In this document: piece after piece, positions 7,738-10,347 of the stretch | Position numbering within the stretch: the stretch's first letter is position 1 | Layout: every line of letters starts with the position of its first letter | IMG/VR virus record: IMGVR_UViG_2663762992_000009 | Direction: 5' to 3' (one strand) | Length of the DNA: 28,397 bases | Source: a virus | Lineage: Duplodnaviria; Heunggongvirae; Uroviricota; Caudoviricetes | Program-made: the position numbers and the translations under genes | The notes under the pieces: model-generated | What the model saw: the letters and a program-made list of their open reading frames with translations, nothing else | What the model was told of the DNA's origin: nothing | Databases searched by the model: none

Positions 7738-7938
7738 ATGAGAAAAATTTATCGTCCGCAGATTCTGGCAGGCAAGGCCTCTTCCAAATAAATTACTCAA
7801 AATGCGAAACTGCGCACGGAGAATTAAACCTTCAAAAAGCTAAGACATCACACTTGACCGGTTCAGAAAAAAATCATTATGTTCTTTCTGCTTCTCCCAT
7901 GAAGCGACCTCAATTATTTTCTGCTTATGTGTGATTTT

Positions 7939-7966
7939 GCCCGTTCTGTATGACGGGCTTTTTTCA
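7939..7966 (+). terminator. rho-independent terminator hairpin, plus orientation (element copy 1)
   Basis: GCCCGT (7939-7944) / ACGGGC (7953-7958) with an 8-nt loop, followed by TTTTTT; the preceding ~45 nt resemble the element at 9328-9400. Confidence 0.6.
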
Positions 7967-8449: not shown

Positions 8450-8859
8450 TGTTCATCACTCCAAGTAAAAAAGGAATGAGAAAAACAAATCACCAGCAGG
8501 CTACAACAGTCAATCTGTTCGGCTGTAAATCACAAACAAGTTAAATAGACTGTTAACACCCACCCTACCTGAATTATTACGCCAAAAAAGGAGATAAAGC
8601 GATAAATCTTATTAGCATGTAACTATTGTTCAACTCAATAGAGCCCATACACTAAGTTTTATTGCCCCTAATAATCCGATGACCAACAGAATGATGCTAA
8701 TTAAGAATACCTGATTCGTTGTAAATCTGATACTGCGTAAATATGCCTTTAGAGCATTAGCAGTTCTGTATTTATTCTGCATTTTCCCGCTCAGAAATCA
8801 CATCAATGACCAATTTAAAAGTAGAGCCCGAATAATCTATCTCCACGACCCGATATGAG

Positions 8860-8963
8860 TGCGGTGCCGGTCGCAACCCGGTGAAACGTATCCATGGTGT
8901 GGTGCAATACATACTGGCAGAATGAATAGTGCCACACCCCTCACGCTGGTGAGATTCACCGCA
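8860..8963. repeat. repeat unit B
   Basis: Same conserved termini as unit A. Read on the minus strand it shows a 7-bp terminal helix, a D-arm-like hairpin (CTCA-CCAGCG-TGAG), a long central hairpin and a T-arm-like hairpin (CCGG-GTTGCGA-CCGG). Confidence 0.7.
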
Positions 8964-9073
8964 GGAGGTAACGTATAAACGGCAGGTGCTTTAGATCAAG
9001 CTTTTTATCATGTCGGCGAAATGAAAAAGGGCTCACCGAAGTGAGCCCTGAATTACCGCCGTTTTCAATTTGC

Positions 9074-9166
9074 CGCAGTGCCGGGTGCCTCCCGATGGTA
9101 TTAACCGCAACGTCAACAGTGGAAGCGAAACCTGACGATGCCCCTACGCTAGTGGGATTCACTGCA
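9074..9166. repeat. repeat unit C (more diverged copy)
   Basis: 5' end gcagtgccgg and 3' end cgctagtgggattcactgca match units A and B with a few substitutions. Confidence 0.6.
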
Positions 9167-9372
9167 ACGGGGGGAACCTATTACCCGCAGACAGCGGCTG
9201 ACAAGATATTTATTTTGCTGAAATGCCAAAATGTGAATCTGCGCATATGAAATTAAACAGAACTTAAACAATTGCAGATACGAACTTGATAGGTTTATGA
9301 AGAAATTACTACGGTCCTCAGGCTTCCCCCTATGAAGCACTTAAGCCTCTTACCTTTTCCAATTGTGATTTT

Positions 9373-9400
9373 GCCCGCTATCTGACGCGGGCCCTTTTTT
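9373..9400 (+). terminator. rho-independent terminator hairpin, plus orientation (element copy 2)
   Basis: GCCCGC (9373-9378) / GCGGGC (9387-9392) with an 8-nt loop, followed by CCTTTTTT; upstream sequence is conserved with copy 1 (atgaagc ... tgtgattttgcccg). Confidence 0.65.
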
Positions 9401-9416
9401 ATACGGAGAACTGAGA

Positions 9417-9491
9417 ATGCCGTGTCATGAAAAAATGGCTATCGCAATCTGTGTTATTGCGCTCATCTTCGCACTGATTTTTGGCAAGTAG
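9417..9491 (+). CDS. candidate 24-aa hydrophobic small ORF (MPCHEKMAIAICVIALIFALIFGK)
   Basis: ATG at 9417 preceded by GGAGA with 7-nt spacing; single hydrophobic helix; lies between a plus-strand terminator and a minus-strand terminator hairpin. Confidence 0.3.
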   Translation: MPCHEKMAIAICVIALIFALIFGK

Positions 9492-9506
9492 GTCCACCTG
9501 AAGCCG

Positions 9507-9541
9507 TCTTTTAAAAACGACAAAACCCGCACCGTGGCGGG
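9507..9541 (-). terminator. candidate tR'-like intrinsic terminator downstream of Q (minus strand)
   Basis: GC hairpin CCCGC/GCGGG (9526-9541); on the minus strand it is followed by UUUUGUCGUUUUUAAAA; about 270 nt downstream of the Q stop. Confidence 0.45.
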
Positions 9542-9807
9542 TTCATCTGGTGTTCATGTTCTGCATCCTTGACCTCGCGATACAGCTTTGCGAAGCATAC
9601 AGTGATTGAAGCAGTTTATGGCTCAAATTGCAATACTTTTTCAGCGACGTAATTTGACCTTAATCATATGCTTTATTACTCTTCGCCTGCATTTAAACAC
9701 TGATATAACTTAGTTATACTTCCATTCATCTTGCACATTGATATTTCCACAAAAATCACCCGCAGCTTTTTACTGTCAAGTTTCAGTTAGTGGATAAGCA
9801 CAACTCA

Positions 9808-10347
9808 TCACACATTCCTATCAATGGAATCCCGTAGCGGGATATAAAGCATGTATTCAACCATATACAGCCATTGGTCGATTCGTCGCCGACAGGTAAC
9901 ATAACTCCAGTCAGGGTATTTTTCCTGAAGTTTCTCAGCTATCTTTCGCTTACTCATTCCCCGTCCTTCGTAACGCTGGTGAAGCAGTGCCTTTAGTGCG
10001 GGATGATCTGCCAGAACTGCCCCGATAACCCGGTCGATTATCAGTGCTTCAGAATCAGTACAGTATGCAAGGTAGCTTTTCTGCTTACCGTTCAATATCT
10101 CACGTAAAAATTGCTCCAGTTCAGGCCTGGTAGTGCCTGATTTTTTAAGCAGCCTGAGCGCATCACGGGCGCCTGTGCGGGTGATTTTTTTACTGACCAG
10201 CAACTGATTGAAGATATTTCCCGGATGGCCATTTCCGATATAAGACCAGCGCCCCCACATTCTTAGCTTTCCCTGTACCCATAACGTCTCAAGCGTAGTG
10301 AGACGAAGCATTTCACCAGGTTTACCTGTCGTGACCGGGTAGATCAT
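9808..10347 (-). CDS. late-gene antiterminator Q-like protein
   Basis: 179-aa ORF immediately upstream of the tRNA/lysis region and after the nin genes; basic C-terminal region with HTH-like character (KRKIAEKL ... RRRIDQWL); start overlaps the upstream gene's stop. Confidence 0.75.
   Translation of the reverse strand: MIYPVTTGKPGEMLRLTTLETLWVQGKLRMWGRWSYIGNGHPGNIFNQLLVSKKITRTGARDALRLLKKSGTTRPELEQFLREILNGKQKSYLAYCTDSEALIIDRVIGAVLADHPALKALLHQRYEGRGMSKRKIAEKLQEKYPDWSYVTCRRRIDQWLYMVEYMLYIPLRDSIDRNV

What the first reader, a model, noticed from the sequence alone, without database searches (positions are those of the whole stretch)
9417..9491. 24-codon hydrophobic small ORF with its own SD in the Q-to-lysis intergenic region
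MPCHEKMAIAICVIALIFALIFGK is one predicted TM helix with a GGAGA SD 7 nt upstream. It lies between a plus-strand terminator (9373-9400) and the hairpin of the candidate tR'. The size and composition recall type I toxins and small membrane regulators, but there is no sequence-level match I can name.
Basis: partly seen in the sequence, partly recalled or inferred. Interest (0 to 1): 0.45.

Follow-up and report, generated by a model that had tools for sequence, protein, structure and literature searches.

The report
Conserved 24-residue prophage membrane peptide gene
A 24-codon reading frame just beyond the late-gene terminator of a rare E. coli/Salmonella lambdoid prophage behaves like a real, conserved gene for a tiny membrane-spanning peptide, but it has no known relatives and whether it is a toxin or a harmless regulator is untested.

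Summary
The ORF is at 9417-9491 (+) as described, with GGAGA 7 nt upstream, between a plus-strand terminator and the minus-strand tR' hairpin. It is more than chance. Only 0.45% of composition-matched random regions contain so hydrophobic a small ORF, and none of 2000 also had an SD. In the three diverged haplotypes I recovered (99.5%, 91.5% and 86% identical), start, stop, frame and SD are all kept. Seven of the nine substitutions fall on third codon positions, and the three amino-acid changes are conservative (M7I, A10T, L16I). The ORF plus SD is a local conservation peak. The antisense frames are broken or change radically.

The ORF runs antisense to the late operon. It lies in a ~320-nt insert with an upstream sRNA-like gene that has its own promoter and an atypical terminator. 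That gene is the only visible source of transcription, through terminator read-through.

No protein family matches it, no antisense promoter was found, and no homologue exists outside this rare DoxX/STnc100 module.

Verdict: probably a genuine small single-pass membrane peptide expressed in the lysogen. Type I toxin status is possible but unsupported. It is a new sequence family of a known kind, of moderate interest.

The parts
9417..9491 (+). 24-codon ORF, MPCHEKMAIAICVIALIFALIFGK. It has a polar N-terminus (MPCHEK), a 17-residue hydrophobic core and a C-terminal Lys.
   Evidence: Intact in all haplotypes, with 7 of 9 substitutions at third codon positions. Hydrophobicity is far above chance.
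9405..9409 (+). Shine-Dalgarno GGAGA, 7 nt before the ATG.
   Evidence: GGAG is identical in all haplotypes. The spacer has single changes, at 9410 (L101) and 9416 (L098/L099).
9286..9315 (+). Candidate sigma-70 promoter, TTGATA-18 nt-TACGGT (TATGGT in L101, L098, L096). It is the only plausible plus-strand promoter upstream of the ORF.
   Evidence: Conserved between the two paralogous copies and across haplotypes. The window's own version is below the threshold of the scan.
9321..9400 (+). sRNA-like transcript of about 80 nt. It has a 5' hairpin GCUUC/GAAGC (9322-9338), a CU-rich linker (CCUUUUCC) and an intrinsic terminator (9373-9400) with a 2-nt CC spacer before the U-tract.
   Evidence: (z = -3.3). 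The Esr41 match is only 19.3 bits against a gathering score of 102.
9523..9544 (-). tR' hairpin of the late leader. It is convergent with the ORF, and its T-run ends about 22 nt from the ORF stop codon.
9605..9633 (-). Candidate late promoter pR' (TTGCAA-17-TTCAAT). It would give a short leader RNA of about 80 nt ending at tR'.
   Evidence: Read. It lies inside the module conserved with 80 Q loci. The promoter itself is an inference.
9808..10347 (-). Q-type antiterminator (DUF1133 / Phage_antitermQ).
9018..9195 (-). STnc100/PasD-family sRNA gene. It marks the left border of the insert that carries the ORF.
   Evidence: 66.2 bits, gathering score 47. In L015 and L017 it follows tR' directly.
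7854..7964 (+). Paralogous second copy of the plus-strand sRNA-like gene (TTGACC-18-TATGTT, canonical terminator). No small ORF follows it.

Best explanation
The ORF is a genuine gene for a 24-residue single-pass membrane peptide carried by a rare lysogenic-conversion module of a lambdoid prophage.

Shown by the sequences:
- The ORF, its SD, start and stop are conserved.
- Substitutions are biased to synonymous sites.
- The ORF sits on the strand opposite to the late operon, immediately downstream of an sRNA-like gene that has its own promoter and terminator.
- The sRNA-like gene and the ORF together form a ~320-nt insert between tR' and STnc100.

Inferred:
- The peptide is made in the lysogen from transcripts that start at the sRNA promoter (9286-9315) and read through its atypical terminator. 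The arrangement resembles the dicF-dicB arrangement of the Qin prophage as I recall it.
- The peptide inserts into the inner membrane. There it modulates a membrane function, either as an accessory or regulatory small protein or, at higher dose, as a membrane-perturbing peptide.
- On induction, Q-modified polymerase reads through tR' across the cassette in antisense and should silence it.
For: - Hydrophobic ORF plus SD is far above chance: 0.45% of random regions have such an ORF, 0 of 2000 with an SD as well, and there are no analogues in 40 related loci.
- Four peptide haplotypes were recovered from DoxX-anchored contigs: identical in L090 and L101, M7I in L091/94/95, A10T in L098/99, L16I in L096/102.
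- ATG, TAG, frame and GGAG are kept in all of them, and the ORF has no indel although the flanks have four.
- Of 9 substitutions, 7 are at third positions, 2 at first and 0 at second. That is 6 synonymous and 3 conservative changes.
- Under random placement of the substitutions, P = 0.007 for the third-position bias and P = 0.003 for an intact ORF with at most 3 amino-acid changes.
- Against L096, identity is 90-92% over the SD plus ORF. It is 77-83% just upstream and falls from 77% to 50% downstream. The ORF is therefore as conserved as the DoxX CDS and STnc100.
- The antisense frame that shares third positions is broken by stops or a frameshift in L101, L098 and L096. The other antisense frame changes radically.
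- M7 is lost in L091, while the N-terminal MPCHEK is invariant with one synonymous change. M1 is therefore the start.
- The ORF persists in L096/L102. In L102 an IS4-type gene lies in the place of the Q/pR' module, and no gene is called there in L096.
- The upstream promoter and hairpins are conserved between two paralogous copies.
- The cassette is absent where tR' abuts STnc100.
Against: - Only three diverged haplotypes exist, so all the statistics rest on 9 substitutions.
- There is no expression data of any kind.
- No recognisable promoter lies between the terminator and the ORF, so expression depends on an unmeasured read-through.
- Stem-weakening changes occur in the terminator in L098 and L096. 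The predicted SD sequestration by the CU-rich linker is not conserved: unpaired probability is 0.02-0.04 in the window and L101, 0.58 in L098 and 0.18 in L096.
- A 17-residue hydrophobic core is short for a bilayer span.
- No homologue was found in 5426 complete E. coli genomes, 50,697 phages, plasmids, IMG/VR, 185,579 species genomes or JGI metagenomes. Breadth of conservation therefore cannot be tested.
Confidence: 0.55

Rival explanations
1. It is the toxin of a type I toxin-antitoxin-like pair. The hydrophobic peptide depolarises the membrane. Its mRNA is held in check by RNA: either the abundant short pR'-tR' leader RNA, which converges on its 3' end as in the 3'-overlapping Gram-positive prophage systems (txpA/RatA, bsrG/SR4), or the upstream sRNA's CU-rich region, which masks the SD.
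For: - Size and extreme hydrophobicity resemble Ibs, ShoB and TisB (own knowledge; KD mean 3.3).
- It sits behind a terminator, and the SD is predicted to be paired in the window haplotype. That fits tight repression.
- It is convergent with a constitutive promoter whose RNA ends about 22 nt from the stop codon.
- Prophage type I toxins are known, for example hokW-sokW of Sp5, which aids phage release (PMC8621323).
- It is retained in a module whose Q/pR' side has been replaced, next to an IS4-type gene in L102. This fits an addictive or beneficial element.
Against: - No match to any type I toxin family model.
- No antisense promoter or terminator overlaps the ORF.
- The pR' RNA does not overlap the coding region, and overlap with a 3' UTR is hypothetical because the plus-strand 3' end is unknown.
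- In L096/L102 the pR'/tR' partner is missing, yet the ORF is intact. This argues against an essential antitoxin role for that RNA.
- SD masking is not conserved.
- There are no tandem duplicates.
Confidence: 0.2
2. It is not a gene. The 75-nt frame is a chance ORF lying in sequence conserved for another reason. That reason could be the 3' extension of the upstream sRNA, the leader of the late transcript on the other strand, or simply recent common ancestry of the few haplotypes.
For: - Only three diverged haplotypes exist, and the module is nearly clonal in more than 180 assembly blocks.
- There is no promoter of its own.
- The gene callers behind the contig collection call no gene at this position in any locus listed. 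A 24-codon ORF is probably below their length limit (own knowledge).
- There are no homologues elsewhere.
Against: - The third-position bias (P = 0.007) and the intact frame with conservative changes (P = 0.003) are not expected for non-coding conservation.
- The antisense frames fail.
- The flanks on both sides diverge faster than the ORF and carry indels.
- The probability of such a hydrophobic ORF with an SD arising by chance is below 0.5%.
Confidence: 0.2
3. The ORF acts mainly in cis. Its translation protects read-through plus-strand transcripts from Rho, so that they extend head-on into pR' and the 3' end of Q. This would damp late-gene expression in a way comparable to the paQ antisense promoter of lambda. 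The peptide itself would be incidental.
For: - The geometry fits: nothing that looks like a plus-strand terminator follows the ORF. The tR' hairpin has no U-tract in that orientation.
- pR' and Q lie directly ahead on the opposite strand.
Against: - Synonymous-biased substitution and conservative replacements indicate selection on the amino-acid sequence, not merely on being translated.
- The ORF is kept in L096/L102, where pR' and Q are no longer downstream.
Confidence: 0.05

Closest known systems
Type I toxins of enterobacteria (Ibs 18-19 aa, ShoB 26 aa, TisB 29 aa, DinQ 27 aa; Hok family including prophage hokW-sokW)
   Same: A very short, strongly hydrophobic single-helix peptide with its own SD. 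It is encoded on a mobile element. It lies next to small RNA genes and behind structures that should limit its expression.
   Different: There is no sequence similarity to any of these families. No overlapping or divergent antisense RNA gene was detected. Toxicity is untested. It is a single copy.
Small inner-membrane proteins of E. coli/Salmonella that act as accessory regulators (e.g. MgtS, AcrZ, CydX, KdpF, YohP, YoaJ; own knowledge)
   Same: Length of 20-50 aa, one predicted transmembrane helix, flanking charged residues, an SD-dependent start, and conservation of the helix with conservative substitutions.
   Different: Those are chromosomal core or operon-linked genes with known partners. 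This one is a prophage insert with no co-directional partner gene and no homologues.
dicF-dicB arrangement of the Qin prophage (own knowledge, not checked here: an sRNA whose terminator is read through into small-protein genes)
   Same: A prophage-borne sRNA with an intrinsic terminator, followed in the same orientation by a small protein gene that lacks its own obvious promoter.
   Different: DicB is a soluble 62-aa division inhibitor and DicF is processed from a long operon transcript. Here the sRNA appears to be a primary transcript and the product is a 24-aa membrane peptide. There is no sequence relationship.
Esr41 and STnc100/PasD prophage sRNAs (Rfam RF02676, RF02076; bioRxiv 10.64898/2026.05.13.724894)
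   Same: Same neighbourhood type. STnc100 is present 220 nt away (66 bits). Esr41 is reported to be frequent near PasD-family genes.
   Different: The upstream plus-strand sRNA-like gene scores only 19.3 bits against Esr41 (gathering score 102) and has a different 5' hairpin. I found no report of a small ORF downstream of Esr41 or of STnc100/PasD-family genes in the papers searched.

Membership tests
Type I toxin-antitoxin systems | Small (<60 aa) hydrophobic membrane-active peptide | tested here: met
   24 aa with a 17-residue hydrophobic core. The maximum 15-residue Kyte-Doolittle mean is 3.3.
Type I toxin-antitoxin systems | A cognate antisense RNA antitoxin gene, overlapping or adjacent, with its own promoter and terminator | tested here: inconclusive
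   No promoter-like or terminator-like site on the minus strand overlaps 9400-9500 (manual reading). The only candidates are the convergent pR' leader RNA, which does not overlap the CDS, and the upstream co-directional sRNA. The pR' module is absent in L096/L102, yet the ORF is intact.
Type I toxin-antitoxin systems | Membership of a described toxin family (Hok/Gef, Ldr, Ibs, ShoB, TisB, DinQ, ZorO, and others) | tested here: not met
   No hit at E-value up to 10 in Pfam-A, NCBIfam or PADLOC. PHROGs gives only E = 0.39 to a family of unknown function.
Type I toxin-antitoxin systems | Growth arrest or membrane damage on overexpression, relieved by the RNA | not testable with these tools
   Requires experiment.
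Bona fide bacterial small proteins (sORF-encoded, <=50 aa) | ORF with a start codon and a correctly spaced SD, conserved in homologous loci | tested here: met
   GGAGA-7 nt-ATG. GGAG, ATG and TAG are identical in all seven loci compared.
Bona fide bacterial small proteins (sORF-encoded, <=50 aa) | Substitution pattern showing purifying selection on the protein | tested here: met
   6 synonymous and 3 conservative changes, with 7 of 9 at third positions. P = 0.007 and 0.003. The sample is small, at three diverged lineages.
Bona fide bacterial small proteins (sORF-encoded, <=50 aa) | Evidence of transcription and translation | not testable with these tools
   No RNA-seq, Ribo-seq or proteomic data are available for a strain carrying this module. 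The peptide string is absent from the searchable literature.
Phage holins/antiholins | Encoded in the late lysis cassette, co-directional with the endolysin, with at least one TM and typically more than 60 aa | tested here: not met
   It is on the strand opposite to the late operon and 2.2 kb from the holin at 7211-6867 (PF05106). It is only 24 aa.
Esr41 sRNA family (for the upstream transcript that would carry the ORF) | Rfam RF02676 score at or above the gathering threshold (102 bits) | tested here: not met
   19.3 bits, E = 0.17 in a 281-nt search.

The most novel reading that the evidence does not exclude
The ~320-nt insert is a self-contained 'sRNA - leaky terminator - toxic membrane peptide' cassette. 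Its output is gated by the state of the prophage. In the lysogen, the short pR' leader RNA and/or the cassette's own CU-rich sRNA region restrain the peptide mRNA. After induction, Q-driven antisense transcription shuts it off. This would be a new architecture of type I-like toxin control wired to the lambdoid late switch.
Probability: 0.12. Interest if true: 0.65.

Novelty: new member of a known kind. Interest (0 to 1): 0.4.

Why it matters
Small membrane peptides are systematically missed by annotation. The gene callers behind the contig collection called no gene at this position in any of the contigs listed. Those that are studied often turn out to be toxins, phage-exclusion factors or regulators of transporters and sensors. 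This one is carried with a DoxX gene and at least three sRNA genes in a mobile module that moves between prophages with different Q genes in E. coli and Salmonella. If it is expressed in lysogens, it would be one more lysogenic-conversion function. It would also be a second example, after dicF-dicB, of a prophage sRNA gene whose terminator read-through feeds a small-protein gene. The case is limited by its rarity and by the lack of expression data.

Tried and rejected
- **Homologue searches that found nothing beyond the same module:**
  - megablast and blastn of 9196-9560 against complete E. coli genomes, phages and plasmids
  - tblastn of the peptide against phages
  - degenerate back-translated patterns in IMG/VR, which returned only the identical contig L005
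  - the same patterns in GTDB species genomes, which returned two unrelated hits: one inside a transporter gene and one in a Rhizobium stretch
  - the same patterns in JGI metagenomes, with zero hits twice
- **Tools that refused a 24-aa query:** The search for related loci and the search for homologous proteins.
- **Q-anchored loci (80 from IMG/VR):** they share only the pR'-tR' module and never the ORF.
- **DoxX relatives at 75-78% identity:** these are chromosomal Citrobacter-type genes between poxB-like and hcr-like genes and do not carry the module.
- **Antisense ORFs as the real coding frame:** rejected.
- **M7 as the start codon:** rejected, because it is ATT in L091/94/95.
- **A conserved SD-sequestering structure:** not supported across haplotypes.
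- **Esr41 identity for the upstream sRNA:** rejected on score.
- **A paralogous small ORF after the second sRNA copy:** none.
- **Covariation support for the sRNA hairpins:** weak. There is one compensatory pair, not above the shuffles.

Full report
**Observation**

The window carries a lambdoid prophage whose late genes run on the minus strand.
- The Q-type antiterminator (DUF1133/Phage_antitermQ) is at 10347-9808 (-).
- A DoxX gene is at 8449-8015 (-).
- A tRNA-Met and a partial tRNA are at 7623-7479 (-).
- The holin (PF05106) is at 7211-6867 (-).

The ORF is exactly as described. ATG is at 9417, TAG ends at 9491, and the peptide is MPCHEKMAIAICVIALIFALIFGK. GGAGA lies at 9405-9409, 7 nt before the start. 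A plus-strand intrinsic terminator lies at 9373-9400 and a minus-strand one at 9544-9523.

The minus-strand terminator closes a ~130-nt module (9645-9515). This module is conserved at 72-84% identity downstream of 80 related Q genes from IMG/VR and an E. coli Rac-like prophage. In every case the similarity stops within a few bases of 9515. That is the behaviour expected of pR'/qut/tR'. Reading the minus strand gives a candidate pR' (TTGCAA-17-TTCAAT, 9633-9605) and a leader RNA of about 80 nt (inference).

So the ORF lies about 22 nt beyond the end of the short late leader. It is on the opposite strand and converges on tR'.

**Is it more than chance?**

An ORF of 24 codons alone is not remarkable. 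One this hydrophobic is.
- In 2000 first-order Markov random sequences with the length and composition of the 8450-9807 intergenic tract, 0.45% contained an ATG ORF of 18-60 aa with a 15-residue Kyte-Doolittle mean of at least 3.0. None of the 2000 also had an SD.
- The entire 28.4-kb window has two such ORFs, and both are in this module.
- In 40 distinct related Q loci, no comparable ORF occurs within 350 nt after tR' on either strand.

**Where the module occurs**

Protein names attached to the exact Q, DoxX and flanking proteins place the prophage in draft E. coli genomes and in some Salmonella enterica. It is rare. The 9196-9560 segment has no match in any of the following:
- 5426 complete E. 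coli genomes
- 50,697 phage records
- PLSDB plasmids
- IMG/VR, except one identical contig
- 185,579 species-representative genomes
- JGI metagenomes

**Comparative test of coding**

I used the neighbouring DoxX protein and the members of its 90%-identity cluster as neutral anchors. This recovered contigs that carry the same module behind different upstream modules. They differ in what lies upstream of the module:
- a 184-aa DUF1133 Q with an ORF6N gene (L090-L095, L101)
- a DUF968 gene followed by an unannotated 203-aa gene (L098, L099)
- an IS4-type gene in L102, and no called gene in L096

Identity to the window over 9190-9560 is 99.5-99.7% for L090-L095, 97% for L101, 91.5% for L098/L099 and 86% for L096/L102.

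In all of them the ORF has the same length, start, stop and GGAG. The peptide variants are M7I (L091/94/95), A10T (L098/99) and L16I (L096/102). MPCHEK is invariant, with one synonymous TGT>TGC change. Because M7 can be lost, M1 is the start.

Of nine nucleotide substitutions, seven are at third codon positions, two at first and none at second. That is six synonymous and three conservative changes. The ORF has no indel, although the flanks of the same alignment carry four.

Random placement of the same numbers of substitutions gives P = 0.007 for the third-position bias. It gives P = 0.003 for an intact ORF with at most three amino-acid changes.

Against L096, the SD plus ORF is 90-92% identical, the same as the DoxX CDS and STnc100. 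The stretch just upstream (9296-9380) is 77-83% identical, and the stretch downstream falls from 77% to 50%.

The antisense frame that shares third positions (9532..9425) is interrupted by stops in L101 and L096 and by a frameshift in L098. The other open antisense frame (9497..9399) accumulates radical replacements such as ERN>YSY.

The evidence rests on only three diverged lineages. Every test nevertheless points to selection on the plus-strand reading frame.

**Context and likely expression**

No sigma-70-like promoter lies between the terminator and the ORF. The 9227-9400 tract has a diverged paralogue (about 67% identity) at 7798-7965, on the other side of DoxX. L096/L102 also carry both copies.

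Aligning the copies shows four shared features:
- a conserved promoter: TTGATA-18-TACGGT at 9286-9315 (TATGGT in three haplotypes), and TTGACC-18-TATGTT at 7854-7883
- an invariant 5' hairpin GCUUC/GAAGC
- a U/C-rich linker
- a terminator whose stem differs by one compensatory pair (C-G versus U-A)

Of all pair cells, 95.5% are standard pairs. Covariation is too sparse to exceed the shuffles. The ~80-nt transcript folds better than its shuffles (z = -3.3). It scores only 19.3 bits against Esr41, whose gathering score is 102. It is therefore an undescribed sRNA-like gene, not Esr41.

In copy 1, the one followed by the ORF, the U-tract is separated from the stem by CC. The stem also carries weakening changes in L098 (a C·A mismatch) and L096 (a 1-nt deletion). 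Copy 2 has a canonical terminator and no ORF after it.

In related E. coli prophages (L015, L017), tR' is followed directly by STnc100. The sRNA-like gene and the ORF therefore form a ~320-nt insert (9196-9514) with a single visible promoter.

The simplest reading is that the ORF is translated from transcripts that read through the sRNA terminator. This is an inference. I recall the dicF-dicB arrangement of Qin as a precedent.

In the window haplotype, the SD is predicted to pair with the linker CCUUUUCC (unpaired probability 0.02). This is not conserved: the value is 0.58 in L098, and L096 uses a different partner. I do not rely on it.

**Function**

No family model matches the peptide. Pfam, NCBIfam, PADLOC and PDB give nothing at E-value up to 10, and PHROGs gives E = 0.39 to a family of unknown function. 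The literature search found neither the peptide nor a description of a small ORF in this position.

The peptide has a polar N-terminus, a 17-residue hydrophobic core and a terminal Lys. This fits a single-pass or membrane-embedded helix.

Its orientation and position make it a gene expressed in the lysogen: it lies opposite to the late operon and just outside the reach of the terminated pR' leader. Q-modified read-through transcription would cover it in antisense after induction. It also survives in L096/L102, where the Q/pR' module is no longer adjacent and an IS4-type gene lies beside it in L102. This suggests it is kept for the host or for the element's maintenance rather than for lytic growth.

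I consider a small membrane-acting peptide the best-supported class. The choice between a benign regulator and a toxin is open.

The type I toxin reading has size, hydrophobicity and apparent tight expression control in its favour, and there are prophage precedents such as hokW-sokW (PMC8621323). It lacks its defining partner, however. No antisense RNA gene overlaps the ORF. The only convergent RNA, the pR' leader, does not reach the coding region and is absent in L096/L102.

**Verdict**

The coding interpretation is supported as far as the few available sequences allow. The toxin analogy remains a lead, not a finding.

This is a new sequence family of a known kind, the prophage-borne small hydrophobic peptide. 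It is embedded in an sRNA-rich conversion module: two STnc100/PasD-type copies, two copies of a new plus-strand sRNA-like gene, DoxX, and a second conserved 50-aa single-TM ORF. It is of moderate interest, mainly as a clean experimental target.

Noticed in passing
window 9286-9400 (+) and 7854-7964 (+): Two paralogous copies (about 67% identical) of an undescribed sRNA-like gene, antisense to the late operon. They share a conserved sigma-70-type promoter, an invariant 5' hairpin GCUUC/GAAGC, a U/C-rich linker and an intrinsic terminator. Esr41 scores only 19 bits. Neither copy matches complete E. coli genomes.
   Followed up: partly
window 9195-9018 (-) and 8987-8817 (-): Tandem STnc100/PasD-family sRNA genes on the late strand. 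The first scores 66 bits and has its own terminator at 9049-9028. The second is degenerate, at 23 bits.
   Followed up: partly
window 8782-8630 (-): A second small hydrophobic ORF of 50 aa with one predicted TM (MQNKYRTANALKAYLRSIRFTTNQVFLISIILLVIGLLGAIKLSVWALLS), 180 nt upstream of DoxX on the same strand. It is open with the same ends in all haplotypes and 80% identical in L096, with conservative TM changes. It is not called as a gene at that position in any contig listed.
   Followed up: partly
window 8449-8015 (-): The DoxX-family gene is a moron in the late region. Its nearest relatives outside the module (75-78% identity) are chromosomal Citrobacter-type genes that lie between a poxB-like TPP enzyme gene and an hcr-like gene. 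This suggests capture from a host chromosome.
   Followed up: partly
window 9646-9807; L003 3626-3940: About 160 nt of extra sequence separates the Q stop codon from the conserved pR' module. In many related E. coli prophages the module starts within about 10 nt of Q; in others 0.9-1.8 kb intervenes. One otherwise identical contig (L003) has a further insertion here that carries a 113-aa YecR-like gene.
   Followed up: no
window 9633-9513 (-): The candidate pR' (TTGCAA-17-TTCAAT) would give a terminated leader RNA of about 80 nt. I recall the StxS sRNA made from pR'-tR' of Stx phages as being of similar size (own knowledge). Whether this RNA has a trans-acting role is unknown.
   Followed up: no
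window 12456-11416 (-): A 346-aa ORF rich in hydrophobic segments. It has no Pfam match and lies between the replication/nin region and the DUF1367-YbcO-Q genes. It may be another accessory (moron or defence) gene.
   Followed up: no
window 7623-7479 (-): A tRNA-Met (CAU) gene followed by a truncated tRNA-like sequence (Rfam 44.8 bits, model positions 8-63, not found by ARAGORN). They lie between DoxX and the holin in the late transcript.
   Followed up: no
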